Shown here piece by piece: positions 6,402 to 32,000 of a stretch of DNA of 32,000 bases. This stretch comes from Orrella daihaiensis. Lineage in GTDB: Bacteria > Pseudomonadota > Gammaproteobacteria > Burkholderiales > Burkholderiaceae_B. The position numbers and the translations under genes are program-made. How positions within the stretch are numbered: the stretch's first letter is position 1; each line of letters opens with the position of its first letter. Location of the stretch: positions 1 through 32,000 of the forward strand of contig NZ_CP063982.1 in assembly GCF_022811525.1 (NCBI RefSeq). The letters are read 5' to 3'. Under the pieces are notes generated by a model. That model did not search any database. It saw only the letters and a program-made list of their open reading frames with translations, and was not told the DNA's origin.

Positions 6402-9400
6402 TTAGGCAATAAAGTCCGCCTGAGCAATCCCCGTGCTTTGATTGATGCCCGAAAGAATAATTAATGAGTCGTTATTATCAAATATGTCATTACCGTTCTG
6501 ATCGATTGCTACCAATGCGTTGCCTTCGGAAATATTCGCAACGTTCCATGCCACATACACAGAATCACCACTGTTTGACACGTGGAAAGCCCTTTCCGCA
6601 TCCGAGACGAATTCCTCTAGGCTGGTTATCAAAGTTCCGTCAGCGATAGTGACGTCTGCCGATGTCAAGCCAGCGACATTAGTTTTAATTTTGTCTATGC
6701 CAGTAGCAAAGTCAAGGATTGTGTCTGCCGTAGCAAGTGTGATGCCAGTTGCACCGTCTGCGTACACAAAAGTATCAGCCCCATTGTTACCCATTAGAAA
6801 ATCGGCACCCGCGCCGCCAATGATGGTGTCGTTGCCATCGCTGCCAAAAATTCGGTCGTTTCCGGCGTCACCATAGAGGGTGTCATCGCCCTCAAATCCA
6901 AAGAACAAATCGTCGCCACCACCGCCCCTAATAGTGTCATTGCCATTGCCCCCCGCAATGGTGTCTCCTAAGTCACCACCTACTGCAGTTCTGTTACCAC
7001 CATTCGCCAGTGTTACATCCAAACTGATGTGACGTTCGTCAATGGCCAAGACTGTACCATCGTGTGTAGTCACCTTAATGACGGTTACAAAAGGGGAAGA
7101 GGTATTTTGATGATTCACCCTCAGCTCACCAGTCGGCCCAGTGCTGTGAGGGAACACGAGAGTAACATCGCTGCTGGTTAAGTCAATCCCAGTCAATAGA
7201 CCAGTATTATCAATGATGCGTATTTGGTCTGTTCCATTACCGAAGTCGGTGATCGAGTCTTTTGCCTGGTCAGGACTGTCTCCCGACGTTGCATCGATAC
7301 GCTCGAAATAAAAGATATCGTTGCCAGCCCCACCAGTTAGCGTATCAACACCCACCCCACCATAAATTTTGTCAGCGCCATCACCTCCATCAATTCTGTC
7401 GCTACCCGCCATTCCATAAATTTCGTCAGCGCCATCACCACCATTAATTGTGTCGTCACCACCCCCTGCATCAATGTAGTCATCACCTCCGCCACTATCA
7501 ATTGTGTCGTTACCAGCTCCGGCTTCAATGTAGTCATCACCGCCGCCACCATCAATCGTATCTGCACCAGAACCGGTGATGTAACTGCCTTCACCAGTCG
7601 TTAGTGCACCTCCATCAATGGTTACGGAGGCAGTCGAAGTTGAGCCATCGACACGTCGATTAGTCGCAGTGTCACCACCAGCCGTTACGGTGGCACCATC
7701 TTCCAGAGCTGCTACGTTGATCCAATCCGATCCCGTCACTTCGATTTCTACTGTCGAATTTGCAGCGTTGTGGGTAATAATGTCCGCACCAACGCCAGCA
7801 TCGGTGATGACATTGTCACCAGCCCCACCAGTCAGCCTATCCGCACCTGCACCACCCGCAATGGTGTCATCGCCCGCACCACCAATGATGACGTCATTTC
7901 CAGAGCCGCCGAGGATGGTGTCATTCCCGGTACCGCCAACGATGGTCTTAGCAGCATCATCGCCTATACCTGAACTACCCGTAATATTCAGTGCTTCAGT
8001 TTGAGCGCTAAAGTCGAAGGTGTAGGCACCTCTCACACCCACATTCTCAACGTTCACCAAATCTGCGTCCAGCAAATTCGCTGCCGAAACAGCTGCCGTA
8101 AATACTGCCGTGTCAGTATCGTCACCACCGTCGATCGTGTCGGTGTCGTCGGCGATCAATAAGTCTTGTCCCGCCCCACCAGTCAGCGAATCCGCACCTG
8201 CACCACCCGTAATGGTATCCGCAAATCTAGATCCAATTAACGTATTTGCACTTGCGCCACCAATCAAATGATAGCCTGTGATGCTATCGTCGGATCCAAT
8301 GCTCATATCGATGTTGAAGTCGCCTGATAAAGTGACGGCACCAACGCTCGTGTTTACGTTAGAGACCGTTGACGTGTAGTCATCCACGACAGCGGCATTC
8401 ACAACCGCAGATCCATATGCCAGCAAGATATCAGCACCATCACCAAGATCGGTAATGGTGGCGGATTGGCCAGAGACTGAGAATGTATCTGCACCTAACC
8501 CGCCCGTAAGCGTATCGCCACTGCCTTCCGACGTCAGGCTGTCGTCACCGGCACCTCCATCGAGGGTGTTGGTACCACCAAAGCCGGAGATGACGTCGTT
8601 GCCGTCACCGCCTAGCAAAGTATCATTGCCAGTGCTCCCGAAAATCCTATCGTCTCCATCACCACCCGTAAAACTGACACTCGCCCCAGGACCGGCCGTT
8701 GCTCCACTCATTGCAACTCCGACTGAGCCAGTTACTATTGCACGCATGTCAGCATTAGCCGTACCAGCGATAATTGTGGTGACGCGTTCCGGAACGGAAC
8801 TGCTTACCTCTACTGTTGTAAGATTTGACGCACCGCCTGTACCCAGATAGATAAAATTAGGAAGTACGCTGTCAATTCTCACAACGTCGAGTCCATCACC
8901 CGCGTACACGGTATTGCGACCCGCCCCAGGATTGATGACATCCGCACCTGCACCACCCGTGATAGTGTCATCACCACCATTGCCGTTGATCGTATCGTTT
9001 GCACTAGATCCCGTCAGGCTGTCTGCACCGTCACCGCCATTTAGCGTGTAGCCGTTGGTAGCTACCGTAGTCACTGTAGCCAGATTCAAATTAATCGTGG
9101 AACTGGTTGTTGCAGCATTGAGAGTCGCGCTACCACCCTCGTTCCTGGTAGCCGCTGTTGCCACAAAGGCAGACACGTTGTTAGCTATCGCGGTTGATCC
9201 GTTGCGAACAATTAAAATATCTCCAGTCGATAAGTCCGTAATGGTCGCTGTGCCCGATGCGTTCACATCAAACGTGTCGTTGCCACCACCACCGGTCATC
9301 TCATCAGTGCCACCACCACTGATAATCGTGTCATTACCGTCAGTGCCAGTTAACGTATCGGCATTAGCCGTGCCTTGAATTGGGGCTGGTGCCACTGGGG

Positions 9401-10031
9401 TGCCACCATCCCCGCCACCCCCGTCTCCGCCGCTCTGGATTTGAGAGTTGACGGGCGGCTCCGTTGTTTGACCACCCGCATTTGAATCACCAGCGTCTGA
9501 ATTGCTGGCGTCAGGGTTCGCCAGTGCATCAAGCCGAGCCCTGATCATCTGCACCGATGCCGGGTCAGCGGTTACACCTTCAAGTGCGCCTGCGGCTAAC
9601 GCAAAATCATTACTAGCTAGCGTGATCGCCACGTACTTTGCAACAGTGACTTTGTTTTCTACTAAAGCCTGGTCCAGCGGATTGACATCCGGACCTCCCT
9701 TAAAGGCTGTGTCGATGATGGCATTGGCAATGTCATAGAAAGGGTAGCCCTCGTTGACCTTACCTACCCAGAAGTCAAGGCCATCGGGATCCACTTCTCG
9801 ATTCAGTGTGTTCTCGTAGAACCGACTGACCGCATCCCTGACGGTCGCATCACCATACGTCCGCTCAAACTCCACTGTCTGAGCAAACGTCGCTGCAAGC
9901 TCAGTTAGCTTTGCCCCATTAGTTAGCGCAGCGACCCAGTGATTAAACCCATCGGCCTCAGGCGCCCGCCCAAAAAACGCAATGTATAGCTTTGCGACTT
10001 GATCCTGATAGACCTCTAACTCGGTTGACAT
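6402..10031 (-). CDS. Large RTX (hemolysin-type Ca-binding repeat) protein with an N-terminal DUF4214-type domain and a serralysin-like C-terminal T1SS-type secretion domain (1209 aa)
   Basis: N-terminus: LYIAFFGRAPEADGFNHWVAAL and FYENTLNREVDPDGLDFWVGKV (DUF4214 signature LY..L.R.PD..G..YW). Dozens of GGxGxDxxx nonapeptides (e.g. GGSGNDVIIGGAGDDTIAGGAGADRLTGGAGDN). The C-terminal end ...DQNGNDIFDNNDSLIILSGINQSTGIAQADFIA matches the typical end of T1SS substrates. No N-terminal signal peptide. Confidence 0.92.
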   Translation of the reverse strand: MSTELEVYQDQVAKLYIAFFGRAPEADGFNHWVAALTNGAKLTELAATFAQTVEFERTYGDATVRDAVSRFYENTLNREVDPDGLDFWVGKVNEGYPFYDIANAIIDTAFKGGPDVNPLDQALVENKVTVAKYVAITLASNDFALAAGALEGVTADPASVQMIRARLDALANPDASNSDAGDSNAGGQTTEPPVNSQIQSGGDGGGGDGGTPVAPAPIQGTANADTLTGTDGNDTIISGGGTDEMTGGGGNDTFDVNASGTATITDLSTGDILIVRNGSTAIANNVSAFVATAATRNEGGSATLNAATTSSTINLNLATVTTVATNGYTLNGGDGADSLTGSSANDTINGNGGDDTITGGAGADVINPGAGRNTVYAGDGLDVVRIDSVLPNFIYLGTGGASNLTTVEVSSSVPERVTTIIAGTANADMRAIVTGSVGVAMSGATAGPGASVSFTGGDGDDRIFGSTGNDTLLGGDGNDVISGFGGTNTLDGGAGDDSLTSEGSGDTLTGGLGADTFSVSGQSATITDLGDGADILLAYGSAVVNAAVVDDYTSTVSNVNTSVGAVTLSGDFNIDMSIGSDDSITGYHLIGGASANTLIGSRFADTITGGAGADSLTGGAGQDLLIADDTDTIDGGDDTDTAVFTAAVSAANLLDADLVNVENVGVRGAYTFDFSAQTEALNITGSSGIGDDAAKTIVGGTGNDTILGGSGNDVIIGGAGDDTIAGGAGADRLTGGAGDNVITDAGVGADIITHNAANSTVEIEVTGSDWINVAALEDGATVTAGGDTATNRRVDGSTSTASVTIDGGALTTGEGSYITGSGADTIDGGGGDDYIEAGAGNDTIDSGGGDDYIDAGGGDDTINGGDGADEIYGMAGSDRIDGGDGADKIYGGVGVDTLTGGAGNDIFYFERIDATSGDSPDQAKDSITDFGNGTDQIRIIDNTGLLTGIDLTSSDVTLVFPHSTGPTGELRVNHQNTSSPFVTVIKVTTHDGTVLAIDERHISLDVTLANGGNRTAVGGDLGDTIAGGNGNDTIRGGGGDDLFFGFEGDDTLYGDAGNDRIFGSDGNDTIIGGAGADFLMGNNGADTFVYADGATGITLATADTILDFATGIDKIKTNVAGLTSADVTIADGTLITSLEEFVSDAERAFHVSNSGDSVYVAWNVANISEGNALVAIDQNGNDIFDNNDSLIILSGINQSTGIAQADFIA

Positions 10032-10287: not shown

Positions 10288-12192
10288 TTGGTAGCTATCC
10301 GCCATTCACGACTTGTGCTTCAGGTGCTAAGCAGCTTATGTCTGTTCTGCCTTGCACTGTCGCTAGCTGTTGCGAACGAACCCAGCAAACCTACCGTGTT
10401 GGTGCAATATTGCCTCGATGGGCAAGATATAGAGACACTCAAAGAAGCGGCGGCGTGCCAATACGGTAATTACGGTGACCTATCCTTAAAAATGCGCTAT
10501 GCCAGCACGCGTTGGGCCAAGGTAACGGCACAAACAGTTGACCGGCCAGGTCTACTAACCATCCATGTTGCGCCCCACCTACTACAAGAAGTCGAGATCT
10601 ACGATGGGCAAACAGGTGCAGGCTTAGCGGGTCCAATTGGCACACAATATCCCTACTCATCCGAACACGGACTACTTGCCGGTTACACCTTCGCATTTGA
10701 TCTAGACACCGCTGGCCAGCACACTTTCTACGTAAGGATGGTGACCTATGGCCTGCCGTACAGCTTTGTCGAAGCATCTCTAGATCCTGTCACTGCCCAA
10801 GAGCAGAATCAGCAAATCGGTTTAGGCATTCACCTCGGTGTCTTAGGCTTGCTGACATTGATCAGCACAACCGTATACATCGCCACGCGTAGTCGTATCA
10901 TGGGTGTGTTTGCTTTAAACATCTTGAGTTTGTTGCTGAGCATCTTGTTGGGATCGGGCTTGATGTACGTCTATTTATGGCCTAACTCACCCGGCTTTAA
11001 CGAATGGCTATTTACAACACTGTTCTATCTAAAGCCAGCACTCTGGGTACTACTGGCTCAAACCTTTTTACTGCCATACCAGACCCCTAATTGGTATCGC
11101 CCAGCCTGCAACATAGCTTACGTGGTCGTATTGCTGATGCTCGGCTTGTCGTGGTTGGGGCATAAAGAGATCAGCAATTGGTTGATGCTGGTGTTTGGCG
11201 TGACGCTCATACCATTGATGCAGCTAGTGGCTATCCGCGAAACATCTGACATCCGAGCCTTGTATAGGCGCATACTGATGCTGGGATACGGCCTCGGCGC
11301 CCTGGTGATGTGGATAGGACTCTTGATCACCCTTTATCCAAGCGACAATCCACGCCTACCCATTCAGTTATCTAGATTGGTCGATTACGTCAATCCAATT
11401 GTGTTGCTCGCATTAGTGATGTTTCACTATCGAGAAACAGTCACTCAGCTTGCCGTAGCCGAAGAAGAAAACCTGACCATGCGACTTGGCTTGGAGTTCG
11501 AACAAAGACTGCGTGAAGAAAGAAAGCTGATGATCGACATGTTGACACATGAGCTTAAAAATCCATTGGCTAGCATCAGCATGGCCATGGGTTCGCTGTC
11601 CAACGCGTTTAAGGACAGCGACAGTCCTGTAAAGCGTCGCCTTAAAAATATCGATCAATCAGTGCGCAGCATGGATTTAGTGCTTGAGCGCTGTAACCTC
11701 ATGAATCAGCTTGATCACAGCGCACTGCCATTCAGCCCAGAGACTGTCAACCTGCGCAACGTCATGTCGAACATCATCGAACGATTTGCCGAAGGTGACC
11801 GAGTATCGCTCCATTTCTCAGGTTCAGATACGTTTGCTACTGACCCGCAGTTTTTTCAGATGATGGTCTCTAATTTGATAGAGAATGCACTTAAATACTC
11901 TGCACCGAATAGCGAGATCAAAGTGTCAATGACGCAGTCGGCGACCAACGAAACATCACGCCTAGTCATTGAAGTCAAGAACCAAATTGGCAGCCACGGT
12001 TTTCCCGACAAAGCCCAAGTATTTGCTCGTTTCTATCGCCATCCATCAGCACGCGACAAAGCAGGGTCGGGTGTTGGGCTATATCTGGTGAAAGCACTCA
12101 CCAAACTTTTAAATGGTCGCATTACCTACGAACACGACACTGAGCACGTTGTGTTTCGCATTGAACTGCCGGAGACAACTAGCGATGCCTGA
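10288..12192 (+). CDS. Sensor histidine kinase, 7TMR-DISM type (periplasmic DISMED2-like domain + 7 TM helices + HisKA + HATPase)
   Basis: TTG start with AGGA 7 nt upstream. Signal/anchor sequence LCLFCLALSLAVA. Seven hydrophobic segments between about aa 175 and 385. H-box MLTHELKNPLASI. ATPase N/G boxes (LIENALKYS, GSGVGLYLV). Confidence 0.9.
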   Translation: MVAIRHSRLVLQVLSSLCLFCLALSLAVANEPSKPTVLVQYCLDGQDIETLKEAAACQYGNYGDLSLKMRYASTRWAKVTAQTVDRPGLLTIHVAPHLLQEVEIYDGQTGAGLAGPIGTQYPYSSEHGLLAGYTFAFDLDTAGQHTFYVRMVTYGLPYSFVEASLDPVTAQEQNQQIGLGIHLGVLGLLTLISTTVYIATRSRIMGVFALNILSLLLSILLGSGLMYVYLWPNSPGFNEWLFTTLFYLKPALWVLLAQTFLLPYQTPNWYRPACNIAYVVVLLMLGLSWLGHKEISNWLMLVFGVTLIPLMQLVAIRETSDIRALYRRILMLGYGLGALVMWIGLLITLYPSDNPRLPIQLSRLVDYVNPIVLLALVMFHYRETVTQLAVAEEENLTMRLGLEFEQRLREERKLMIDMLTHELKNPLASISMAMGSLSNAFKDSDSPVKRRLKNIDQSVRSMDLVLERCNLMNQLDHSALPFSPETVNLRNVMSNIIERFAEGDRVSLHFSGSDTFATDPQFFQMMVSNLIENALKYSAPNSEIKVSMTQSATNETSRLVIEVKNQIGSHGFPDKAQVFARFYRHPSARDKAGSGVGLYLVKALTKLLNGRITYEHDTEHVVFRIELPETTSDA

Positions 12193-12925
12193 CACACCTC
12201 CCTTATCAATTGCCATTGTTGAAGACGATGTGATTCTGCGTGAAGAACTTGGACACTTCCTTCAAGGCATGGGTCATACCGTCCATGAACTTGTCAGTGG
12301 CACTGCATTAGACGACATCGTGCAAGAAACCACGATAGATATTGTGATTTTGGATTTAAACCTGCCAGGTGAAAGCGGTTTTGAAATTGCACAACGCTAT
12401 CGAGAAGACTATCCTGAGCTTGGCATCATCATATTGTCAGCTCGCACGGCACCCCTGGACCGAATTGGCAGCTACGAACAAGGCGCTGACATCTACATCC
12501 CCAAGCCATGCCCACCCGACGAACTGTTAGCGGCCATTAGAAGCCTGGCCCGCCGGGTTAAGCCCACGCAAACAACCGACAGCTGGCAACTTGATCCCAT
12601 TCGTCATCTCCTGCTCAATGCCAATGGCACCATCACGGTCCAATTGCTTGCGGTTGAAAGCAGCATTGTTGCGCTACTCGCACGCGCCCCTAAACACCAA
12701 ATGAGTGCTGACGACCTGTGTGCTTTGACGGTAGAGAACAACTCAAATCGGGATACCAGTGAAGTCATCACCCGTCGTGCCCTAGAAAACAAAATCAGCC
12801 GCCTGCGCAAGAAATTCGCTCAACTCGCACAGAACGAACCAACATTAATCCGCTCGGTTCGTGGTGAGGGCTATCAATTGTGCATCCCGGTAAACGTTCT
12901 ACCAGACCCCGGCTCGAAGGCTTAG
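12185..12925 (+). CDS. OmpR/PhoB-family response regulator (receiver + winged-helix DNA-binding domain)
   Basis: ATG at 12185 overlaps the kinase stop (ATGCCTGA, 8-nt overlap), suggesting translational coupling. Receiver motifs IAIVEDD, ILDLNLPG and PKP. C-terminal motifs ...ISRLRKKF... and IRSVRGEGYQL. Confidence 0.9.
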   Translation: MPDTPPLSIAIVEDDVILREELGHFLQGMGHTVHELVSGTALDDIVQETTIDIVILDLNLPGESGFEIAQRYREDYPELGIIILSARTAPLDRIGSYEQGADIYIPKPCPPDELLAAIRSLARRVKPTQTTDSWQLDPIRHLLLNANGTITVQLLAVESSIVALLARAPKHQMSADDLCALTVENNSNRDTSEVITRRALENKISRLRKKFAQLAQNEPTLIRSVRGEGYQLCIPVNVLPDPGSKA

Positions 12926-15942: not shown

Positions 15943-17166
15943 TGAAGTAGTTTCGATTTGATCTGACAATTAGGCCTTGCCAAGAGGTGGGGTTACCCAG
16001 TTTGATAGAGGTGCGAACTTTTATCAACTAGCGCGAAGCGCAATGGAGTAACCCCATGAGTAGTGTTAACCAAAATGTCATCAAACACAAGGTCGGCCTG
16101 TTGAACTTGGCTGCCGAGCTTGGAAACGTATCTCGCGCCTGCAAGGTGATGGGCTTTTCCCGAGACACCTTCTACCGATACCAAGCAGCCGTTGCTGAAG
16201 GCGGTGTAGAAGCTTTGCTCGATGCCAACCGCAAGAAGCCAAACTTGCGAAATCGTATTGAGCAAAGCATTGAATCTGCCGTGGTGGCCTTTGCCCTGGA
16301 GCAGCCCGCCTTTGGCCAAGTCCGTGTCTCTAACGAGCTGCGTAAGCGAGGTGTCTTTGTTTCGCCATCTGGCGTGAGGTCGGTTTGGTTACGTCATGAC
16401 CTCGAATCATTCAAGAAGCGCCTGATTTCGTTAGAGAAACATGTAGCAGCCACGGGCGAAGTCTTGACCGAAGCTCAGGTCGCAGCACTCGAGAAAAAGC
16501 AAGAAGACGACGTCGCCCACGGAGAGATTGAGACTGAGCACCCCGGTTACCTAGGCAGCCAAGATACGTTCTATGTGGGTACCATCAAGGGCGTGGGTCG
16601 TATCTACCAAAGAGCAGACCTTTGTCGATACCTACTCCAAGTGGGCGACTGCGAAGCTGTACTGCACCAAGACACCGATTACCGCTGCAGACCTATTGAA
16701 CGACCGTGTGCTGCCGTTCTTTGCAGAACAGCAGATGGGTGTTCTGAGGATCCTGACAGACCGTGGGACAGAATTCTGCGGCAAGGCCGAAACTCATGAT
16801 TACCAGCTGTACTTGGCGCTCAATGACATCGAGCACACCAAGACCAAGGTCATGCACCCTCAGACCAATGGCATCTGTGAACGGTTTCACAAGACGATTC
16901 TGCAGGAGTTTTATCAGGTCGCCTTCAGACGAAAAATCTATCGGTCCATCGAAGAGCTGCAGGCTGATCTGGACGAGTGGCTGCATTACTACAACCATGA
17001 CCGAACTCATCAAGGCAAGATGTGCTGTGGTCGAACACCGATGGAAACATTAATTGCTGGCAAACCAGCGTGGGAGGATAAAATCAACCAACTGAATCAC
17101 TGAACTTGATCTGACATACAGGCACCGCAAACTGGGGATCTGTCAGATCAAGTCGCGACTACTACA
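15943..17166 (+). mobile_element. IS481-family insertion sequence, copy B (1224 bp)
   Basis: Same terminal inverted repeats (15943-15968 and 17141-17166) and collinear with copy A. The only difference I can find is AGAG (16611-16614) in place of T (4770). Confidence 0.9.
16056..17103 (+). pseudogene. IS481-family DDE transposase, interrupted by a +1 frame change at about 16611-16614
   Basis: Same two overlapping ORFs as copy A (16056-16799 and 16573-17103). Here ...GRIYQ is followed by 4 extra nt (AGAG) before QTFVDTYSKW. Confidence 0.8.
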
Positions 17167-17749
17167 CATTAAGCCAGTCTCTGATAGGAACTGCCTCTCG
17201 AATCATAGCCATGGTAGGCGGCTCACCAGTCAGCGCAAGATACAGCAGCGCAAAGTCAACTTCCTGTGCTCGTAATTCAACCATCTCTGCCGAGCCAGAA
17301 AAGCTCTCCAAGACAGATGCTCGTGACAACCCGCCCGACAGTTGCGCTGCCCAATACGCCTGTCCCGCCTCATCAGGTTCGCGTCGCAGGGCGTTTTGAT
17401 AAAGAGACGTGATGAATTGCTCATCATCCATCTGCCCATACTTGGCTTCAAATTCATCAGCTTGGCTGAATTCCGTTGCAATAACGTCCAATGACACACC
17501 AGCACGATGAGCCTTTACCCAAAAGTCCAAGCCATCCGCCTCGGGGGCTCGATCAAACGTCACGAAATACAATTGTGCAATTGGCTGTACATGCACTTTG
17601 TATTCAACCGATGAGATGAATTGCTCGGTCATCTTGGCGGCACTGATACCGCCATACTCAATCATCTCGCGCCAGAATGCCAATCCTGATGCATCAGGCT
17701 CTCGACCCAGAATGTTTTGATAGAGCTGGCTGACAAATGACGCAGACAT
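17162..17749 (-). pseudogene. N-terminal 195-aa fragment (three DUF4214-type repeats) of the IS-disrupted adhesin-type gene
   Basis: Repeats LYQNILGREPDASGLAFWREMI, LYFVTFDRAPEADGLDFWVKAH and LYQNALRREPDEAGQAYWAAQL. The frame ends ...IRDWLNV, then hits a TAG supplied by the IS right end (17162-17164). Confidence 0.85.
17167..17173. repeat. Target-site duplication CATTAAG (right copy) of IS copy B
   Basis: See 15936-15942. Confidence 0.85.
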
Positions 17750-22187: not shown

Positions 22188-22195
22188 AACGTCCT

Positions 22196-24893: not shown

Positions 24894-27416
24894 TTATCCC
24901 GGCACAAACAACCCATTACCGCTGACTTGGTTCGTCGACGCACTCTGCGACTCTGCCGAGGTGAGTAGGCTGATGATGAGCTCACCCTCGGTTGCCTCAT
25001 GCACCACCAGCGCTTCGGTCCAGTAGGCAAGCCCTTCAGTGTCAGGGGCTCTGTTTAATATGGCTTCGTAGAGTTCCTCGACCAGTTGTTCTTCTGACGG
25101 TGTGCCGTACAGCTGCTTGAACTCTGTAGACTCGGCTAGCGCTTGAGCGACGTCTTGTAATGTCGCTCCTTGGTTCATCTGCTCAACCCAGTACGTTAAT
25201 CCTTCAGCATCAGGGCTGCGTCCCAAGACTTCTTCGTACAGATGATCGATTTCGGTGATGTCTGTGCCAGTGGTTTTGATGAGGGTGACATCACTGAACT
25301 CGATCGTCTCAACGTCTCTGACAATGATCCGACCCTCGGGGCCGTAGAGCGTGGCTTGGAGTTGCCCGTTAAGTTGACCGTTATGGGACTCTTGAGTGAT
25401 CACGTAGTCTGCGAGAGCGTTCGATAGCTTGACCGTATCCTGACCCCCACTGCCTTCAATCACCCAGTTACCGACGATGACTTCAAACACGTTGTCTTGG
25501 GCGTTACCGGTGACCGTGTTGTTCAGTCCATTCTCAGTTAAGCGGATGTGTTCAATGTCATCGGGTAGTGCCACATCTTGTTGGTGACCGTGGATGAGAA
25601 GATCAATATTGGCAGTACCTAGTCCTGTAGCCAGTGCACCGTGTTGCTCAACCGTGATGAGATTGCCACCGGTGCTGTGGGTGGTCGTTGACGTCACAGC
25701 CGCTTCGGTATCTGACCCATCCCAGTAGAACTGAATCAGCTCTGAGGCAGGTGACACATTGCCAGCCATATCCACTTGTCTGACCTGCACCTGATTCAGT
25801 CCAGGTTGAGCTTCAAACGTATCGCTCCACGTCTGACCACCATCAATTGAGAACTCCAGTATGGCACCGTCTTCGACCTTGCCAAACGAGAGCTTGCCCG
25901 TGCTGGTGCGAGGAATCGTATCGTTGCTATCTGCTGGTACAGCGGCTTTAAATGCGGGTGCTGCCAATGGAGCTGCAACCGCCACCCCATCAACCACCAC
26001 CTCAGGTGCCTCAGGGGCTGTCGTGTCCAATACAAAGGTGATGGCCCGGGTAGCGGCTGAGGCCTGACCCAGTACATTGATCTGGCGTACATACAGGGTA
26101 TTACTGCCTTCCTGGGCCGCAAACGTCTCGGACCATGTCGTGCCGTCTGTGGAATACTCCACCCGCGCCTGAGGCCACACGCCCGCAATATCCAACTCTA
26201 ACTTGCCGGTGACCTTATTACCACTGATCTGGCCCGGCTGCACAACGAGTTGTACGCCCGGCACAATAACCGGGAAATCGACACTTCCCTCCGGTAATGC
26301 GCTGACCGCGGACCCTTGTTTATCACCGATTTGCAAGTTGTTCACACCACCTGTTCCGATGATTGCTCGTCCACTTAGGTTAGGCAGGGCAAACGTCACC
26401 TCACCATCACCACCGAAATGAGTGCCCAATAATGAAAACAAAGCCTGATGCTGGGCGATTGCCAGAACCTGGCCTTGCGCCTGCATCCAGCCTCCAGGCA
26501 GGTACTGACCCGCATACAGTGTCACCTGACCGAGCATCGGGTAATTGGTGTCGTAGGCCTGATATAGACCATCGGTATTGATGATGTAACGCATCCCGAG
26601 TGAAGGTGGTTGTACATTCACTTGCCCACTACCAACAACGGGTAAGTTATGGTCCGTGATCACAGTTTGGGCTGCCCCAAGCACACTACCCGCAAGCAAC
26701 TCATCACCGCCTGGTATCAATCCCATTCCAACTGGGACGCGGTTACGCAAATCGGGTAATGCAAAGGTGTTCACACCATCGCCACCATAAGTTGTGCCCA
26801 CTACAGCGGCCAAGGCTTTGTATTCATCGATGTTCAACAAACGGCCATCTGCTGGTAAAAACCCAGCTGGCATCCGCTCAGATTCAACCGGTCCTGCAAA
26901 TGGATACACCATGCCTATGGTCGTCATGGTGGGAGAGTTACCAGATGGGAATGTTCCGCTGACCTGAATCAGGTACTGCATCGTCAATGCTTCTTGCTGA
27001 TTGTCAATCGGTATGGATCTACCACCAAGCTCCGGTGGCATTTGCCACTGGTTCAACGTTATCTGATTACCGGGGTGGCCAAGTTCGGCTCCCCAGATAG
27101 GATGAGCCTGACCTTCAAAAGTCTGTGTTTTGACGAAGGGCATAGACCCTTGCAGGTCTGGCAACTTGGGGTTACCGTCCCAGTACGTATTGCCTAGAAG
27201 GCTATACAACGGGGTAGCCGCATTCAAAAACTGACCTTGAGCGGGCGCGACTGTTTGAATCCGCGTTGGTTCAAACGCGAGATTCAGTATGAAGCCAAGC
27301 GATGCCGCTGTACCATAACCATCCGGTCCACCCTGGAAGTTCGGAAACATGCCACCGGTCACGATCACCTGTGGCATTGCCACACTGGGCATTGCAATCG
27401 AAATTGGCTCTGACAC
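24894..27416 (-). CDS. Triple phage-tail-collar-domain / Ig-like / DUF4214 protein (paralog 2, 840 aa)
   Basis: GTG start with GGGAGAG 5 nt upstream. Same architecture as paralog 1. The first collar unit is degenerate (LYSLLGNTYWDGNPKLPDLQG). The second and third are canonical (LPADGRLLNIDEYKALAAVVGTTYGGDGVNTFALPDLRNRVPVG; QAQGQVLAIAQHQALFSLLGTHFGGDGEVTFALPNLSGRAIIG). Confidence 0.9.
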   Translation of the reverse strand: MSEPISIAMPSVAMPQVIVTGGMFPNFQGGPDGYGTAASLGFILNLAFEPTRIQTVAPAQGQFLNAATPLYSLLGNTYWDGNPKLPDLQGSMPFVKTQTFEGQAHPIWGAELGHPGNQITLNQWQMPPELGGRSIPIDNQQEALTMQYLIQVSGTFPSGNSPTMTTIGMVYPFAGPVESERMPAGFLPADGRLLNIDEYKALAAVVGTTYGGDGVNTFALPDLRNRVPVGMGLIPGGDELLAGSVLGAAQTVITDHNLPVVGSGQVNVQPPSLGMRYIINTDGLYQAYDTNYPMLGQVTLYAGQYLPGGWMQAQGQVLAIAQHQALFSLLGTHFGGDGEVTFALPNLSGRAIIGTGGVNNLQIGDKQGSAVSALPEGSVDFPVIVPGVQLVVQPGQISGNKVTGKLELDIAGVWPQARVEYSTDGTTWSETFAAQEGSNTLYVRQINVLGQASAATRAITFVLDTTAPEAPEVVVDGVAVAAPLAAPAFKAAVPADSNDTIPRTSTGKLSFGKVEDGAILEFSIDGGQTWSDTFEAQPGLNQVQVRQVDMAGNVSPASELIQFYWDGSDTEAAVTSTTTHSTGGNLITVEQHGALATGLGTANIDLLIHGHQQDVALPDDIEHIRLTENGLNNTVTGNAQDNVFEVIVGNWVIEGSGGQDTVKLSNALADYVITQESHNGQLNGQLQATLYGPEGRIIVRDVETIEFSDVTLIKTTGTDITEIDHLYEEVLGRSPDAEGLTYWVEQMNQGATLQDVAQALAESTEFKQLYGTPSEEQLVEELYEAILNRAPDTEGLAYWTEALVVHEATEGELIISLLTSAESQSASTNQVSGNGLFVPG

Positions 27417-27486
27417 TGGATCTCTCCCGTTATATCTTACTATTTATTCTGCGCACTCGGTCAGGCTCGCTCTGACCAATCATTCA

Positions 27487-30024
27487 TCAACCCAACACAA
27501 ACAACCCACCAGTGCCGACCTGTGTCGTTGACATGCCTTGCGATTCTGCTGACATCAGCAGGCTGACAATCAACTCGCCCTCGGTTGCCTCATGCACCAC
27601 CAGTGCTTCAGTCCAGTAGGCAAGCCCTTGCGCGTCAGGGGATCTATTTAAGATGGCTTCATAGAGTTCTTCTACGAGTTGTTCCTCTGACGGTGTGCCG
27701 TACAGTTGTTTGAACTCTGTCGATTCGGCTAGCGCTTGCGCGACGTCTTGTAATGTCGCTCCTTGGTTCATCTGGTTCACCCAGTAGGTCAAGCCTTCCA
27801 GATCTGGCATGCGTCCCAGTACTTCCTCATACAGATGATCAATCTGCGCAATGTCTGTGCCGTCTGTTTTGAGGAGCGTGGCATCACTGAACTCGATCGT
27901 CTCAATGTCTCTGACAATGATCCTGCCCTCTGGACCATAGAGCGTGGCTTGTAGCTGCCCCTCAAAGGACTCTTGGGTGATCACATAGTCTGCCATGGCA
28001 TTCGATAGCGTGACCGTGTCTTGACCCCCATTGCCTTGAATCACCCAGTTACCCACGATGACTTCAAACACATTGTCTTGGGCGTTACCGGTGACCGTAT
28101 TGTTCAGTCCGTTCTCGGTTAGACGGATATGTTCAATATCATCGGGTAGTGCCACGTCTTGTTGGTGACCGTGGATGAGAAGATCAATATTGGCAGTACC
28201 TAGTCCTGTGGCCAGTGCTCCGTGTTGCTCAACCGTGATGAGATTGCCACCGGTGCTATGCATTGTTGTGGACGTCACAGCCGCGTCGGTATCTGACCCG
28301 TCCCAGTAGAACTGAATCATGTCTGAGGCAGGTGACACATTGCCAGCCATATCCACTTGTCTGACCTGCACCTGATTCAGTCCAGGTTGAGCTTCAAACG
28401 TATCGCTCCACGTCTGACCACCATCAATTGAGAACTCCAGTATGGCACCGTCTTCGACCTTGCCAAACGAGAGCTTGCCGGTGGCAGTGCGGGGAATCGT
28501 TGCATCATCAGAGGGTGTAGCGGGAACGCTGAAAGCGCTGGGAACAGCTGCCTTAAACATCGGGGCGAGCTCAACAATATTGCCGATGGTCAAGTTGGTT
28601 AGATTGATCTCGGGTACTTCTGGAGATGTTGTGTCCAGCACAAAGTTGATCGGGCTACTGGCTTCAGACGGCAAATTGAATAGCGCCACTTGCCGTACAT
28701 ACAATGAGTTGTTGCCTTCTTGTGCCTCGTAAGTCCCAGACCACGATGTGCCATTGGTCGAGTACTCCACCCGCGCTTGCGGCCAGACTCCCGAGATGTC
28801 AAGCTCAAACTGGCCGGTGATCTTATTGCCTATTGCGGATCCATTGGCGTTTAACAACTGAACGCCAGGTACAGGAACCGTGATTTCAGGGAAATTGTTC
28901 AACGACACGTACTGTTCTGCGCTGCCCTGCGTTTCACCGAGTTGCAGATTGTCTGACCCCCCGGTACCTACGACGGTGCGGCCGCGCAAATCTGGCAGGC
29001 CGAAAGTCGTGGCGCCATCTCCGCCGAACGTGTTGCCGAGCAACGAATATAAATCCTTATTGCCACTGATAGATAACAACTGACCTTGTGCCAGGGACCA
29101 GCCGCTCGGGAGATAAGAGCCCGCATACAACATGACTTGGCCTAGGAGGGGTGTGGCGCCGTTTTCCGGTAGTCCTGTGGTCGAACCCTCGGTGCTGATT
29201 ACGTAATGCATGCCCAAAGAGGGCTGCATAACTGGGATAGTCCAGCCATCCGGGTCATTGGGCGCCAATAAATTTGTGCTGGTTACACCGAGTTTCTCAC
29301 CAAGCCGGACATCCGTGCCAGAAGAAGAGACTCCGACGGGCACTCGGTTGCGCAAATCGGGCAATGCAAATGTAGAAAACCCATCCCCGCCGTAGGTGGT
29401 CCCAAGCACGGCGTGAAGTGAAGGGAAATCCGAGATCTGTAGCAAACTGCCATCAGCCGGTAAAAAGCCATTGGGCAGACCACCACGAGAAGGTGAGGCA
29501 AACGGGTAAACCATGCCGATGGTATTAAGCGAAGGCGAAGAACCCGCCGGAAACATGCCCTCAGCTTGAATCACATACTGCATACCCAAACCAAACTGTT
29601 TCAGATCTATCGGTGAAGACCAACCACCGAGCGTAGTGGGTAATTGGTGCAAACCAAGCTCAACCTCAGTGTTCGACCCCCCCTGGGTCTGCCCCCACTG
29701 AGCCCCGCCACCGCTCGCACTCAAATACAGTGCTGCTGCACCTTCTAGATTCGGCAAAGAGAAATTGATCATCCCGTTACCGCCGTATGTGCTCCCGAGT
29801 AGCGAGAACAAATCGACGTTGGACACGATGCTCATCAAGCTTCCATCGGCTGGCAACAGTTGTGGCTCTCGCGTCGAATTGATATCAAACGCAGTTGTCA
29901 CCATAAAACCGATGCTTCCGCCTGGATCCGGAGATCCGCCACCGAAGCTCGGATAAAGCCCGCTGGCAATAATTGACTGCGGCAGCGCAATAGAAGGTTG
30001 TGCAAGATTGACTGGCGTTGCCAC
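27487..30024 (-). CDS. Triple phage-tail-collar-domain / Ig-like / DUF4214 protein (paralog 3, 845 aa)
   Basis: GTG start with AAGGAG 7 nt upstream. Collar units: LPADGSLMSIVSNVDLFSLLGSTYGGNGMINFSLPNLEG; LPADGSLLQISDFPSLHAVLGTTYGGDGFSTFALPDLRNRVPVG; LAQGQLLSISGNKDLYSLLGNTFGGDGATTFGLPDLRGRTVVG. Confidence 0.9.
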   Translation of the reverse strand: MATPVNLAQPSIALPQSIIASGLYPSFGGGSPDPGGSIGFMVTTAFDINSTREPQLLPADGSLMSIVSNVDLFSLLGSTYGGNGMINFSLPNLEGAAALYLSASGGGAQWGQTQGGSNTEVELGLHQLPTTLGGWSSPIDLKQFGLGMQYVIQAEGMFPAGSSPSLNTIGMVYPFASPSRGGLPNGFLPADGSLLQISDFPSLHAVLGTTYGGDGFSTFALPDLRNRVPVGVSSSGTDVRLGEKLGVTSTNLLAPNDPDGWTIPVMQPSLGMHYVISTEGSTTGLPENGATPLLGQVMLYAGSYLPSGWSLAQGQLLSISGNKDLYSLLGNTFGGDGATTFGLPDLRGRTVVGTGGSDNLQLGETQGSAEQYVSLNNFPEITVPVPGVQLLNANGSAIGNKITGQFELDISGVWPQARVEYSTNGTSWSGTYEAQEGNNSLYVRQVALFNLPSEASSPINFVLDTTSPEVPEINLTNLTIGNIVELAPMFKAAVPSAFSVPATPSDDATIPRTATGKLSFGKVEDGAILEFSIDGGQTWSDTFEAQPGLNQVQVRQVDMAGNVSPASDMIQFYWDGSDTDAAVTSTTMHSTGGNLITVEQHGALATGLGTANIDLLIHGHQQDVALPDDIEHIRLTENGLNNTVTGNAQDNVFEVIVGNWVIQGNGGQDTVTLSNAMADYVITQESFEGQLQATLYGPEGRIIVRDIETIEFSDATLLKTDGTDIAQIDHLYEEVLGRMPDLEGLTYWVNQMNQGATLQDVAQALAESTEFKQLYGTPSEEQLVEELYEAILNRSPDAQGLAYWTEALVVHEATEGELIVSLLMSAESQGMSTTQVGTGGLFVLG

Positions 30025-30157
30025 GGCTCATCTCCTTTTTAGTTCGATTGCTTTTTGTGACAACTCGCCACAGATCACTGCGCTTTAACTATACGATCAA
30101 TCTGTGACCACTTGGTTCAATAAATTGTGATTGATGTAAAGCACGCGATGTAAGCAA

Positions 30158-30192
30158 ATGCCCAGTTTCCATCGAAACTGGGCATGTTTTTT
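30158..30192 (+). other. Perfect 12-bp stem-loop followed by T6 (terminator-like in plus-strand orientation) between collar paralogs 4 and 3
   Basis: ATGCCCAGTTTC-catc-GAAACTGGGCAT-g-TTTTTT. On the minus (coding) strand the hairpin sits 46 nt after the paralog-4 stop but is not followed by a T run. Confidence 0.5.
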
Positions 30193-30230
30193 ACACGGAC
30201 ATCACGTCAATTACTCACATGACTAATAGC

Positions 30231-32000
30231 CTATCCCAGCACGAACAAACCAATCGCACCAGCCTGGTGCATTGACGCACTCTGCGACTCTGCGGAAGTG
30301 AGCAGGCTGACAATCAACTCACCCTCTGTGGCCCCATGCACCACCAACGCTTCGGTCCAGTAAGCAAGTCCTTGCGCGTCAGGAGATCGATCGAGAATCG
30401 CTTCGTAGAGTTCTTCTACGAGTTGTTCCTCTGACGGTGTGCCGTACAGTTGTTTGAACTCTGTAGATTCGGCTAGCGCTTGGGCGACGTCTTGTAATGT
30501 CGCTCCTTGGTTCATCTGCTCAACCCAGTACGTTAATCCTTCAGCATCAGGGCTACGACCCAACACCTCTTCATACAAATGATCGATTTCGGTGATGTCT
30601 GTGCCGTCAGTTTTGAGGAGGGTGACATCACTGAACTCGATCGTCTCAACGTCTCTGACAATGATCCGACCCTCGGGGCCGTAGAGCGTGGCTTGGAGTT
30701 GCCCGTTAAGTTGACCGTTATGGGACTCTTGAGTGATCACGTAGTCTGCGAGAGCGTTCGATAGCTTGACCGTATCCTGACCCCCACTGCCTTCAATCAC
30801 CCAGTTACCGACGATGACTTCAAACACGTTGTCTTGGGCGTTACCGCTGACGGTATTGTTTAGTCCGTTCTCGGTTAGACGGATGTGTTCAATGTCATCG
30901 GGTAGCGTCACGTCTTGCTGGTGACCGTGGATGAGAAGATCAATCGAATCCGTCCCTAGGCCTGTAGCCAGTGCCCCGTGTTGCTCAACCGTGATGACGT
31001 TACCCCCGGTGCTGTGGGTGGTCGTTGACGTCACAGCCGCTTCGGTATCTGACCCATCCCAGTAGAACTGAATCAGCTCTGAGGCAGGTGACACATTGCC
31101 AGCCATATCCACTTGTCTGACCTGCACCTGATTCAGTCCAGGTTGAGCTTCAAACGTATCGCTCCACGTCTGACCACCATCAATTGAGAACTCCAGTATG
31201 GCACCGTCTTCGACCTTGCCAAACGAGAGCTTGCCCGTGCTGGTGCGAGGAATCGTATCGTTGCTATCTGCTGGTACAGCGGCTTTAAATGCGGGTGCTG
31301 CCACCGCTACTCCATCAATTACCACCTCAGGTGCCTCAGGGGCTGTCGTGTCCAATACAAAGGTGATGGCCCGAGTAGCGGCTGAGGCCTGACCCAGTAC
31401 ATTGACCTGGCGTAAATATAAAGTGTTAGTGCCTTCCTGGGCCGTAAACGTCTCAGACCACGTGGTGCCATCTGTGGAATATTCCACCCGAGCCTGCGGC
31501 CATACACCTGAGACATCCAACTCAAACTTGCCCGTGATCTTGTCACCGGCGACTTGACCGTTCTCGTCTAACACCTGCACTCCTGGTACCGGTGTCACAA
31601 TCTCGGGCAGGTTTGCAGCCGTAATGTACTCACTAAAGCTGCCCTGTGTGTCACCAATCTGCAGGTTGTTCACGCCACCGGTGCCCACAATCGTACGACC
31701 CTGCAAGTCGGGGAGCGCAAATGTGGTGACGCCGTCGCCACCAAAACGGGTGCCAAGTAGAGAATATAGCGATGACGTGTCGTCGGTAATCTCTATCATC
31801 TGACCTTTCGCAAAGGTCCACTCATCCGGTATGTGTGCCCCTGCGTACAGGAGCACTTGAGCCATCATTGGTTTACCTTCATTGAATGTGCCATATGGGC
31901 CTTCGAGGATAATCACATAGTTCATACCCAAGGACGGCTGCATGACCGAAACCGCAGAGTCACCGGCGATATCAGGCTGCAGCAGGCTTAACGGCGCCAC
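30231..32000 (-). CDS. Triple phage-tail-collar-domain / Ig-like / DUF4214 protein (paralog 4, partial; N-terminus lies beyond the window end)
   Basis: The frame is open to the window edge. The visible part starts at the end of collar unit 2 (QPSLGMNYVIILEG), followed by collar unit 3 (FAKGQMIEITDDTSSLYSLLGTRFGGDGVTTFALPDLQGRTIVG), Ig-like modules and DUF4214 repeats. Confidence 0.9.
   Translation of the reverse strand: MAPLSLLQPDIAGDSAVSVMQPSLGMNYVIILEGPYGTFNEGKPMMAQVLLYAGAHIPDEWTFAKGQMIEITDDTSSLYSLLGTRFGGDGVTTFALPDLQGRTIVGTGGVNNLQIGDTQGSFSEYITAANLPEIVTPVPGVQVLDENGQVAGDKITGKFELDVSGVWPQARVEYSTDGTTWSETFTAQEGTNTLYLRQVNVLGQASAATRAITFVLDTTAPEAPEVVIDGVAVAAPAFKAAVPADSNDTIPRTSTGKLSFGKVEDGAILEFSIDGGQTWSDTFEAQPGLNQVQVRQVDMAGNVSPASELIQFYWDGSDTEAAVTSTTTHSTGGNVITVEQHGALATGLGTDSIDLLIHGHQQDVTLPDDIEHIRLTENGLNNTVSGNAQDNVFEVIVGNWVIEGSGGQDTVKLSNALADYVITQESHNGQLNGQLQATLYGPEGRIIVRDVETIEFSDVTLLKTDGTDITEIDHLYEEVLGRSPDAEGLTYWVEQMNQGATLQDVAQALAESTEFKQLYGTPSEEQLVEELYEAILDRSPDAQGLAYWTEALVVHGATEGELIVSLLTSAESQSASMHQAGAIGLFVLG

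What the first reader, a model, noticed from the sequence alone, without database searches (positions are those of the whole stretch)
6402..32000. Nine structural genes in a row all carry DUF4214-type repeats, at opposite termini in different protein classes
The motif LY..(L/F).R.PD..G..(Y/F/H)W is present in every structural gene from 6402 to the window end.

It is at the N-terminus of the four RTX/T1SS-type proteins (6402-10031; the split 13024-17749 gene, with three copies; 18075-19118; 19454-20557).

It is at the C-terminus of the glycine-rich beta-helix protein (20895-22187) and the four collar proteins.

In the RTX proteins the C-terminus is occupied by the secretion domain, so this placement suggests the module must sit at a free terminus.

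Inference: DUF4214 may act here as a common docking, oligomerisation or anchoring tag. It would tie a set of different extracellular effector domains (beta-roll, Ig-like, beta-helix, collar heads) to one scaffold or surface structure, in the manner of dockerin or SLH modules. DUF4214 has no assigned function to my knowledge.
Basis: partly seen in the sequence, partly recalled or inferred. Interest (0 to 1): 0.75.

Follow-up and report, generated by a model that had tools for sequence, protein, structure and literature searches.

The report
Secreted surface proteins sharing DUF4214 module
A betaproteobacterium (Orrella daihaiensis) carries a row of at least ten genes for probable type I-secreted surface proteins that all bear the same small helical DUF4214 module, most likely a cell-surface anchoring or docking piece; this fits published proposals for the domain rather than revealing a new kind of system.

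Summary
Pfam finds DUF4214 above threshold in all nine genes. It is N-terminal in the four RTX proteins and near the C-terminus in the beta-helix protein and the four collar proteins. There are 19 units in total, and none elsewhere in the window.

The nine genes reduce to four independent module lineages, because the collar genes and three of the RTX genes are paralogues.

A DUF4214 pair has the fold of a phycobilisome-linker domain.

All nine proteins lack signal peptides and are very acidic. They contain no cysteine in 6,661 residues. In four related metagenomic loci the collar-DUF4214 gene lies directly downstream of a complete type I secretion system. Some of these loci also carry the same two-component regulator and homologues of the RTX-DUF4214 genes. 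The array is therefore probably type I secretion cargo.

The anchoring or docking idea is plausible, and others have already proposed it: for segmented filamentous bacteria in 2012 and for Pseudomonas putida Psh in 2026. There is also a weak link to the LPS-binding N-terminal domain of RsaA. None of this is shown for this locus.

The "free terminus" argument fails. The collar proteins keep a conserved tail after DUF4214, and 31 of the 150 best-scoring family representatives carry internal arrays.

Verdict: a new member of a known kind, of moderate interest.

The parts
6402..10031 (-). RTX1209. It has an N-terminal DUF4214 pair (DNA 9672-10004) plus a helical extension, then 13 RTX stretches, and a C-terminus ending ...ADFIA.
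   Evidence: DUF4214 1.8e-15; HemolysinCabind 1e-75. (unit coordinates). (C-terminal motif); the homologue in L010 is syntenic, with the N-module 75% identical against 48% in an RTX stretch.
10288..12925 (+). Two-component system inside the array. The 7TMR-DISM/DISMED2 histidine kinase is at 10288-12192 and the OmpR-type response regulator at 12113-12925. It is a conserved neighbour of the cargo genes.
   Evidence: Pfam; the kinase is 60% and the regulator 72% identical to the pair next to the collar gene in L009; the regulator is 69% identical in L010.
13024..15942 (-). 3' part of the IS-split gene (RTX1164). It holds two Big_13 Ig-like domains and seven RTX stretches.
   Evidence: (reconstruction of the intact ORF).
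15943..17166 (+). IS copy B (IS481-like transposase, HTH plus rve). It is flanked by a 7-bp target duplication, CATTAAG, at 15936-15942 and 17167-17173. Copy A is at 4102-5322, with the duplication GCTAAAC.
17174..17749 (-). 5' part of the split gene, holding three N-terminal DUF4214 units (DNA 17255-17740).
   Evidence: 2e-41, 3 stretches.. (annotated as UOD50387, 195 aa).
18075..19118 (-). RTX363/347. It has an N-terminal DUF4214 pair (18759-19091), a helical hairpin, and a serralysin-type RTX C-terminal domain.
   Evidence: (the annotated start gives 347 aa)..
19454..20557 (-). RTX367. It has an N-terminal DUF4214 pair (20171-20530), a helical hairpin, and a serralysin-type beta-roll domain.
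   Evidence: (AF2 pLDDT 85: helices 4-180, beta-roll 186-362). (Foldseek match to the PrtC/serralysin C-terminal domain, E 8e-7).
20895..22187 (-). BH430, a glycine-rich protein with a predicted beta-helix and a C-terminal DUF4214 pair (21009-21347), followed by a 36-aa tail.
   Evidence: DUF4214 6.9e-22; a weak Pectate_lyase_5 match..
22196..24760 (-). COL854. It consists of a triple Collar head (1-375), two Ig-like domains, a beta-roll-like segment (575-711), a DUF4214 pair (DNA 22259-22594) and an aberrant extended tail.
   Evidence: (AF2 pLDDT 87). (the DUF4214 pair matches PBS-linker structures 2ky4, 3osj, 3pru and 3nph)..
24894..27416 (-). COL840, a collar paralogue with a DUF4214 pair at 24921-25256 and a tail ending ...NGLFVPG.
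27487..30024 (-). COL845, a collar paralogue with a DUF4214 pair at 27514-27849 and a tail ending ...GGLFVLG.
30231..32000 (-). Fourth collar paralogue, cut by the window end. The window holds residues 250-838 of the 838-aa protein P0002. Its DUF4214 pair is at 30258-30593.

Best explanation
The window holds most of an expanded cargo array of a dedicated type I secretion system in Orrella daihaiensis.

Each cargo protein joins a different outward-facing part to one pair of DUF4214 units (three units in one gene). The outward-facing parts are a single-chain triple-collar head related to tail-fibre tips, a glycine-rich beta-helix, Ig-like domains, and long RTX beta-rolls. A DUF4214 pair folds into one phycobilisome-linker-like helical domain.

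The most likely job of this domain is non-catalytic retention or docking. After export it would keep the protein on the producer's surface by binding a common envelope component. LPS O-antigen with calcium is the best-precedented candidate. A surface-layer protein or other DUF4214 modules are the alternatives. Different heads would then be displayed on the same footing. A conserved 7TMR-DISM two-component system probably regulates the array.

Shown here: the DUF4214 calls and their positions; the PBS-linker fold; the serralysin-type RTX domain; the absence of signal peptides; the acidic, cysteine-free composition; the synteny with T1SS genes in related loci; and the variable-head, constant-stalk pattern.

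Inferred: export by a T1SS in Orrella; surface retention; the identity of the partner; and the role of the two-component system.
For: DUF4214 is present in all nine genes.

Fold. A profile of the window's di-units hits the phycobilisome-linker repeat domain of ApcE in the PDB (E 3e-4). 30 of 68 family representatives also match PF00427. The AF2 model of COL854 (pLDDT 87) matches PBS-linker structures with probability 1.0 and target-normalised TM-score 0.45-0.49.

Secretion. The four RTX proteins have canonical repeats. RTX367's C-terminal half matches the serralysin/PrtC secretion domain. Homologues of the small RTX proteins, and RTX1209 itself, end in ...DFI(A/Q). The collar family ends in a conserved (D/G)GLFV(L/M)G. 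None of the proteins has a signal peptide. All nine have pI 4.05-4.5 and no cysteine in 6,661 residues, whereas neighbouring non-cargo proteins have 5-8.

Synteny. In L001-3, L008, L009 and L010 the collar-DUF4214 orthologue (61-64% identity) lies directly after OEP-ABC-MFP genes (in L010 the contig starts within the ABC gene, so the OEP gene is not seen). Other DUF4214 cargo lies nearby, including RTX-DUF4214, Peptidase_M64-DUF4214 and SapC. So do the same response regulator and kinase, and homologues of RTX367 and RTX1209.

Constant stalk. The heads are 52% identical, against 81-100% for the Ig2, roll and DUF4214 regions among five paralogues. RTX1209's N-module is 75% identical to its orthologue, against 48% in an RTX stretch.

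Positional analogy. Triple-collar heads in other organisms carry PEP-CTERM, MYXO-CTERM or RTX modules alongside the head.

Precedents. Psh, an RTX-DUF4214 protein, is T1SS-exported, acts at the cell surface and is modelled to bind O-antigen. The SFB secreted families are united by a C-terminal DUF4214. [quoted passage not shown] The Pfam RsaA_NTD model scores above threshold (30.1 bits, cut-off 27) inside the DUF4214 array of one family member, and just below it (24.2 bits) in another.
Against: No T1SS gene lies in the window, and the Orrella chromosome beyond it could not be read.

Three collar-DUF4214 homologues elsewhere (L004, L006, L007) have no T1SS within 10 kb where the contig allows.

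No binding partner is identified. O-antigen binding by Psh is only a computational model.

The four module lineages share only 16-42% identity. The conserved motif is also conserved in phycobilisome linkers, so it marks the fold, not a binding site.

The modules are strongly acidic (net charge -12 to -24). Direct binding to anionic LPS would need cation bridging.

The link to the RsaA N-terminal domain is weak. hhalign gives a probability of only 3-12%, and a profile of the N-terminal modules finds no RsaA in the PDB.
Confidence: 0.55

Rival explanations
1. DUF4214 is an assembly module, not a cell anchor. The pairs would bind each other, or a ring-shaped protein partner as phycobilisome linkers do. 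This would build the different cargo proteins into an S-layer-like lattice or a multi-protein extracellular complex.
For: The PBS-linker fold has a documented role in docking to symmetric protein rings. SapC, named after the Campylobacter fetus S-layer secretion locus, occurs in related loci. A DUF4214 protein lies next to an S-layer protein in Ca. Dechloromonas occultata. The Psh preprint's own model has Psh forming multimers on the surface.
Against: No candidate ring or scaffold gene is conserved across the loci. There is no SapC in the window. The lineages are only 16-42% identical, which argues against tight homotypic recognition. No multimer modelling could be run.
Confidence: 0.2
2. DUF4214 serves secretion or folding, not retention. 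It could be a T1SS recognition or stalling element, or an intramolecular folding nucleus. If N-terminal and pre-folded, it might plug the outer-membrane channel, as the LapA retention module does.
For: Every gene next to the T1SS in the related loci carries DUF4214, including proteins without canonical RTX repeats. In C-type cargo the module sits where T1SS signals lie. In N-type cargo it would be the last part to leave the channel.
Against: The module occurs at either end within one locus, and the N-type proteins already carry a complete serralysin-type C-terminal domain. The family has 46,879 representative clusters at E<=0.001. It includes Sec-dependent proteins of Gram-positive SFB and cysteine-rich proteins, so it is not tied to T1SS.
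Confidence: 0.12
3. The shared module has no common function here. The clustering reflects tandem duplication of two gene families plus the general abundance of DUF4214 in secreted proteins, where it acts as an inert spacer or solubility domain.
For: Seven of the nine genes belong to two paralogous families. DUF4214 is very common. Some collar-DUF4214 genes elsewhere are solitary.
Against: Four unrelated architectures still share the module in one locus. The association recurs with yet other cargo types in independent loci. The module is among the most conserved parts of the collar and RTX1209 proteins.
Confidence: 0.1
4. The collar genes are prophage tail-fibre genes, as the public annotation ('tail fiber protein') suggests.
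For: PF07484 Collar domains are present. The public name is 'tail fiber protein'. An integrase and a second recombinase lie at the left end of the window.
Against: Phage genomes match only one collar domain, covering 10-14% of the protein, and never the DUF4214 part. No other phage structural gene is in the window. The conserved neighbours are T1SS and two-component genes.
Confidence: 0.02

Closest known systems
Psh (PP_1794) of Pseudomonas putida KT2440, an RTX-DUF4214 protein exported by an AprD-type T1SS (bioRxiv 10.64898/2026.09.02.748959)
   Same: It combines RTX and DUF4214 and depends on a T1SS. It acts at the cell surface. That preprint's survey also finds DUF4214 fused to peptidases, Ig-like and other domains, usually near T1SS or O-antigen genes. 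The collar proteins here have the same order: a roll-like segment followed by a C-terminal DUF4214.
   Different: The four RTX proteins here have the opposite order, with DUF4214 first. The cargo is a multi-gene array with collar and beta-helix heads. No O-antigen or pseudaminic-acid genes are in the window. Sequence homology to PP_1794 was not tested. A phage-shielding role is unknown here.
RsaA S-layer protein of Caulobacter crescentus (PDB 6T72 for the N-terminal domain; PMC6978808)
   Same: It is T1SS-secreted, acidic and binds calcium. An N-terminal all-helical domain anchors the protein to LPS O-antigen, followed by a beta-rich body and a C-terminal signal. This is the layout of RTX1209, RTX1164, RTX363 and RTX367. 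The RsaA segment TYQFFTGVAPSAAGLDFLV aligns with the DUF4214 motif.
   Different: The window proteins do not reach the RsaA_NTD model. The profile comparison is weak (probability 3-12%). There is no evidence of a lattice-forming body. The C-terminal placement in the collar proteins has no counterpart in RsaA.
SFB (Candidatus Arthromitus) secreted protein Clusters 1 and 3 (PMC3371716; PMC12780176)
   Same: Many otherwise dissimilar predicted secreted proteins in one genome are united by a C-terminal DUF4214 region. That region was noted to be like the PBS linker and was proposed as a surface-anchoring domain.
   Different: That host is a Gram-positive bacterium using Sec-dependent secretion, with no T1SS or RTX. 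It has four conserved regions per protein. The genes are not described as a single array.
Phycobilisome linker domain (PF00427; PDB 2KY4, 3OSJ, 3PRU, 3NPH)
   Same: It has the same fold, and the same sequence motif recurs twice per domain. Its known role is docking into phycobiliprotein rings.
   Different: It is cytoplasmic and photosynthetic in context. The window modules score below the PF00427 gathering cut-off (16.8 against 28.7 bits).
Dockerin/cohesin and SLH modules of Gram-positive surface display
   Different: There is no sequence or fold relationship and no Pfam hit. No cohesin-like partner has been identified.

Membership tests
DUF4214 (Pfam PF13946) | Match to the family HMM above the gathering score (23.2 bits) | tested here: met
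   57 to 140 bits in all nine genes; 19 units.
DUF4214 / phycobilisome-linker superfamily | Helical repeat fold, with two units forming one PBS-linker-like domain | tested here: met
   AF2 gives four helices per unit at pLDDT 80-94. Foldseek probability 1.0 to 2ky4, 3osj, 3pru and 3nph. ApcE E 3e-4.
Phycobilisome linker family proper (PF00427) | HMM match above the gathering score (28.7 bits) | tested here: not met
   the best window module scores 16.8 bits (E 0.0075). Other DUF4214 family members do reach the cut-off.
Type I secretion substrates (RTX / serralysin-type) | RTX nonapeptide repeats forming a beta-roll | tested here: met
   HemolysinCabind in the four RTX genes; the serralysin C-terminal domain fold. 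For the collar proteins there are only degenerate repeats (TGNAQDNVF, GNGGQDTVK) and a predicted roll at 575-711, plus a weak SapA-protease match. The collar and BH430 cases are therefore inconclusive.
Type I secretion substrates (RTX / serralysin-type) | Uncleaved C-terminal signal, no N-terminal signal peptide, acidic pI and few or no cysteines | tested here: met
   ...DFI(A/Q) and (D/G)GLFV(L/M)G termini, and no signal peptides by inspection; pI 4.05-4.5 and 0 Cys in 6,661 residues. That these features mark T1SS substrates rests on general knowledge of the family.
Type I secretion substrates (RTX / serralysin-type) | Adjacent ABC transporter, membrane fusion protein and TolC-like genes | tested here: inconclusive
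   None are in the window. They lie directly upstream of the orthologous collar gene in L001-3, L008, L009 and L010 (the OEP gene is not seen on the L010 contig). The Orrella flank is unreadable.
Type I secretion substrates (RTX / serralysin-type) | Demonstrated T1SS-dependent export | not testable with these tools
   This needs secretome analysis of wild type against a T1SS mutant.
Psh-type RTX-DUF4214 phage shield | RTX domain followed by a C-terminal DUF4214, next to T1SS and O-antigen or pseudaminic-acid genes | tested here: inconclusive
   The order is met loosely by the collar proteins and reversed in the four RTX proteins. No O-antigen genes are in the window. Glycosyltransferases are present in L001.
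Psh-type RTX-DUF4214 phage shield | Sequence homology to PP_1794, and phage resistance on export | not tested
The phenotype needs experiments.
RsaA-type LPS-anchored S-layer protein | RsaA_NTD (PF19198) match in the N-terminal module | tested here: not met
   no hit in the window modules; no RsaA in the PDB profile search. There are hints only: PF19198 scores 30.1 bits inside the DUF4214 array of P0304 and 24.2 bits in P0333, and hhalign aligns the motif at 3-12% probability.
Dockerin or SLH anchoring modules | Dockerin or SLH HMM match | tested here: not met
   no such Pfam hits. The resemblance is functional analogy only.
Phage tail fibre (prophage) | Collar domain within a phage structural gene cluster | tested here: not met
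   The collar domain is present. There are no phage structural neighbours. Phage matches cover only 10-14% of the protein.

The most novel reading that the evidence does not exclude
The DUF4214 pair is an envelope anchor that works at either end of a protein, binding LPS O-antigen or a surface layer. Through it, one type I secretion system would display a swappable, rapidly diversifying set of heads (lectin-like triple-collar heads on a constant stalk, plus beta-helix and RTX bodies). This would be a Gram-negative counterpart of SLH or dockerin display. The resulting coat might act in adhesion or as a Psh-like phage shield, under control of a carbohydrate-sensing 7TMR-DISM two-component system.
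Probability: 0.25. Interest if true: 0.7.

Novelty: new member of a known kind. Interest (0 to 1): 0.4.

Why it matters
DUF4214 is one of the larger uncharacterised domain families of bacterial surface proteins. This search found 46,879 representative clusters.

If the module is a general surface anchor for type I-secreted proteins, many "hypothetical RTX" and "tail fiber" annotations could be reinterpreted. It would also offer a compact display tag.

This locus is a convenient test bed. It offers the module in both orientations and four cargo classes. It also has paralogues with diverging heads on a nearly identical stalk, a natural IS knockout, and a conserved regulator.

The idea itself is already in the literature, and nothing here proves it.

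Tried and rejected
Reaching the source genome failed. I tried exact-protein look-ups for window and Orrella proteins and two scans of the genome collection. As a result, the T1SS predicted beyond position 32000 and the genome-wide DUF4214 count remain unchecked.

A profile search of the 5.8-billion-protein set with the di-unit alignment returned only 22 short proteins and said nothing about the Orrella proteome.

The Foldseek search with the RTX367 model was dominated by the RTX domain, so it gave no information on the N-terminal module. A module-only model could not be made because both prediction slots were used.

The RsaA lead was followed through. The sequence I recalled was verified against PDB 6T72. 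However, the profile searches are weak or negative, so homology is not claimed.

NCBIfam gave no family-level hit above its cut-offs.

The promoter and terminator scan was uninformative, with fewer promoter-like sites than in shuffled sequence.

Literature searches on bacterial collar proteins and on Orrella daihaiensis gave nothing relevant.

The prophage reading was rejected.

Recent exchange of modules between protein classes was rejected, because the lineages are only 16-42% identical.

Full report
**Source and layout.** The window comes from Orrella daihaiensis (Alcaligenaceae), whose chromosome is 2,803,849 bp. Several window proteins are identical to its annotated proteins.

- Positions 1-6253 hold a P4-type integrase, a second tyrosine recombinase, an IS and an ORF with no family match.
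- From 6402 to the window end, nine minus-strand genes carry DUF4214.
- They are interrupted by a plus-strand two-component system (10288-12925) and by a second copy of the IS.

**The observation.** Pfam PF13946 passes its gathering score in all nine genes. A unit HMM built from the window finds 19 units. Each gene has two, and the split gene has three. A six-frame scan places all 19 inside these genes and none elsewhere.

In the four RTX proteins the units lie within the first 166 residues at most. In the beta-helix protein and the collar proteins they lie 6 to 36 residues before the C-terminus.

The split gene is confirmed. A 1,224-bp IS with a 7-bp target duplication sits at 15943-17166, and excising it restores a 1,164-aa ORF.

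The array extends past the window. The fourth collar gene is the 838-aa protein P0002, of which the window holds residues 250-838. A fifth paralogue (UOD50394, 834 aa) has the next accession number.

**How independent the nine genes are.** Unit identities are 78-100% among the collar paralogues and 44-74% among RTX1209, RTX363 and RTX367. Between lineages they are only 16-42%. There are therefore four independent architectures, and no sign of recent module exchange.

S.EF). The same motif aligns with the repeat domains of phycobilisome linkers. It therefore marks the fold rather than a binding site.

**What the module is.**
- A profile of the window's di-units hits the linker repeat of ApcE in the PDB (E 3e-4), and hits ApcH, CpcG2 and CpcL more weakly.
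- 30 of 68 family representatives also match PF00427.
- AF2 models of RTX367 (pLDDT 85) and COL854 (pLDDT 87) give four helices per unit.
- The COL854 model matches PBS-linker structures 2KY4, 3OSJ, 3PRU and 3NPH with probability 1.0.

One DUF4214 pair thus equals one PBS-linker-like domain, which explains why the units come in pairs. The SFB genome paper of 2012 had already noted this similarity.

**What the proteins are.** RTX367's C-terminal half has the fold of the serralysin/PrtC C-terminal RTX domain.

COL854 consists of:
- a confidently modelled head of three Collar domains (1-375);
- two Ig-like domains;
- a beta-roll-like segment with degenerate nonapeptides (575-711);
- the DUF4214 pair (712-829);
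- a short tail.

Phage genomes match only single collar domains, so the public name "tail fiber protein" reflects that one domain only.

None of the nine proteins has a signal peptide. The small-RTX family and RTX1209 end in ...DFI(A/Q), and the collar family ends in a conserved (D/G)GLFV(L/M)G. All nine are very acidic (pI 4.05-4.5). They contain no cysteine in 6,661 residues, while the neighbouring kinase, regulator and integrase have 5 to 8. From general knowledge of type I secretion, these are hallmarks of its substrates.

**Context elsewhere.** The Orrella flank could not be read, but related metagenomic loci are informative.
- In L001-3, L008, L009 and L010 the collar-DUF4214 orthologue (61-64% identity) lies directly downstream of type I secretion genes: OEP, ABC and AprE-type MFP in L001-3, L008 and L009. 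The L010 contig begins inside the presumed ABC gene, so only that gene and the MFP are seen there.
- L008 and L001 add an RTX-DUF4214 or a further DUF4214 protein, a 524-547-aa DUF4214 protein, SapC and (in L001) glycosyltransferases.
- L009 adds a Peptidase_M64-DUF4214 protein and the same 7TMR-DISM kinase (60% identity) and response regulator (72%) as the window.
- L010 has, in order, MFP, collar, an RTX367 homologue (69%), the regulator (69%) and an RTX1209 homologue. The N-module of that last protein is 75% identical, against 48% in an RTX stretch.
- Cargo in these loci is also acidic and cysteine-free.
- Three other homologues (L004, L006, L007; 41-58% identity) have no T1SS within reach.

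The window therefore looks like an expanded version of a conserved unit made of a T1SS, its cargo and a regulator. I predict the T1SS genes lie just beyond the collar array.

**Evidence about function.** Among the five Orrella collar paralogues the heads are 52% identical on average, while the Ig2, roll and DUF4214 regions are 81-100% identical. Orthologues show the same trend. A varying tip on a constant base fits a conserved attachment role for the base.

Triple-collar heads in other organisms carry PEP-CTERM, MYXO-CTERM or RTX modules alongside the head.

Published work points the same way.
- SFB papers call DUF4214 a likely surface-anchoring domain.
- A 2026 preprint shows that P. putida Psh, an RTX-DUF4214 protein, is exported by a restored T1SS and confers phage resistance at the surface. 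Its O-antigen binding is only modelled.

RsaA offers a further precedent. It is a T1SS-secreted protein whose helical N-terminal domain binds LPS O-antigen with calcium.
- I recalled its sequence and verified it against PDB 6T72.
- The Pfam RsaA_NTD model scores 30.1 bits (cut-off 27) inside the DUF4214 array of P0304, and 24.2 bits inside that of P0333.
- hhalign aligns RsaA's TYQFFTGVAPSAAGLDFLV with the DUF4214 motif, but at only 3-12% probability.
- A PDB profile search with the N-terminal modules finds no RsaA.
- This is a hint of distant homology, not a result.

**The "free terminus" argument.** It does not hold.
- The collar proteins have DUF4214 followed by a conserved C-terminal tail.
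- Psh has a C-terminal DUF4214 and is still T1SS-exported.
- In the 150 best-scoring representatives of the family, arrays are C-terminal in 85, N-terminal in 16, span the protein in 18 and are internal in 31.

Terminal placement is a preference, not a rule.

**Conclusion.** The most likely reading (about 0.55) is that these are type I secretion cargo proteins whose PBS-linker-like DUF4214 pair keeps them docked on the cell surface. LPS O-antigen with calcium is the best-precedented partner.

The rivals are:
- protein-protein assembly into a layer or complex (0.2);
- a role in secretion or folding (0.12);
- no common function beyond paralogy (0.1);
- prophage tail fibres (0.02).

Its interpretation is reasonable, but others proposed it first, it is unproven here, and one of its arguments is wrong. 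I rate the finding a new member of a known kind, with moderate interest as a well-suited experimental system.

Noticed in passing
window 4102-5322 and 15943-17166: Two copies of a roughly 1.22-kb IS with an IS481-like transposase (HTH plus rve) are 99.6% identical and differ by a 3-nt indel. Each has a 7-bp target duplication (GCTAAAC and CATTAAG). In both copies the transposase reads as two overlapping ORFs (for example 4215-4955 and 4732-5259). It is therefore either frameshifted or made by programmed frameshifting.
   Followed up: partly
window 4009-4213 and 15871-16054 (minus strand): Rfam family psRNA2 (RF02349) matches above its gathering score at the left end of both IS copies (104 and 112 bits). 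The matches reach about 70-90 nt into the non-homologous flanks. The 'sRNA' family may in fact describe an IS end.
   Followed up: no
window 1-6253: The left flank looks like a remnant of an integrative element. It holds a P4-type integrase with an Arm-DNA-binding domain (1-1206), a second tyrosine recombinase (3300-3890), the IS, and a 309-aa basic ORF (pI 9.3) with no family match (5324-6253). No tRNA gene is in the window.
   Followed up: partly
window 22196-22260 (C-terminus of COL854): COL854 ends ...DDLFVMSRFSSYSIGDLYS, whereas the family's conserved ending is ...GLFV(L/M)G. A 13-residue extension follows the motif. If the motif must be terminal, this might impair export. GenBank annotates the gene as only 492 aa (UOD51494), while RefSeq gives 854 aa.
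   Followed up: partly
window 22196-32000 and beyond: The collar paralogues are mosaic at the DNA level. For example, 22713-23012 is 98% identical to 27953-28252 but 88-90% identical to the other two copies. The heads are about 52% identical and the stalks 81-100%. This suggests gene conversion of the 3' halves, diversifying selection on the heads, or both.
   Followed up: partly
L009 8355-8507: In this related locus a 50-aa ORF sits just upstream of the collar gene. It is 60-63% identical to the second DUF4214 unit and tail of the collar proteins. It appears to be the remnant of a lost collar paralogue, so the copy number of this gene changes in other lineages too.
   Followed up: no
window 10288-12192: The histidine kinase has a 7TMR-DISMED2 extracellular domain and a 7TMR-DISM membrane module. 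This sensor type is generally thought to bind carbohydrates. It is conserved next to the cargo genes in L009, and only a remnant remains in L010.
   Followed up: partly
P0265, P0267, P0273 and similar proteins: About twenty proteins of 4,000-6,200 residues among the top hits carry arrays of six to fourteen DUF4214 units in the middle of the chain. Their origin and other domains were not examined.
   Followed up: no
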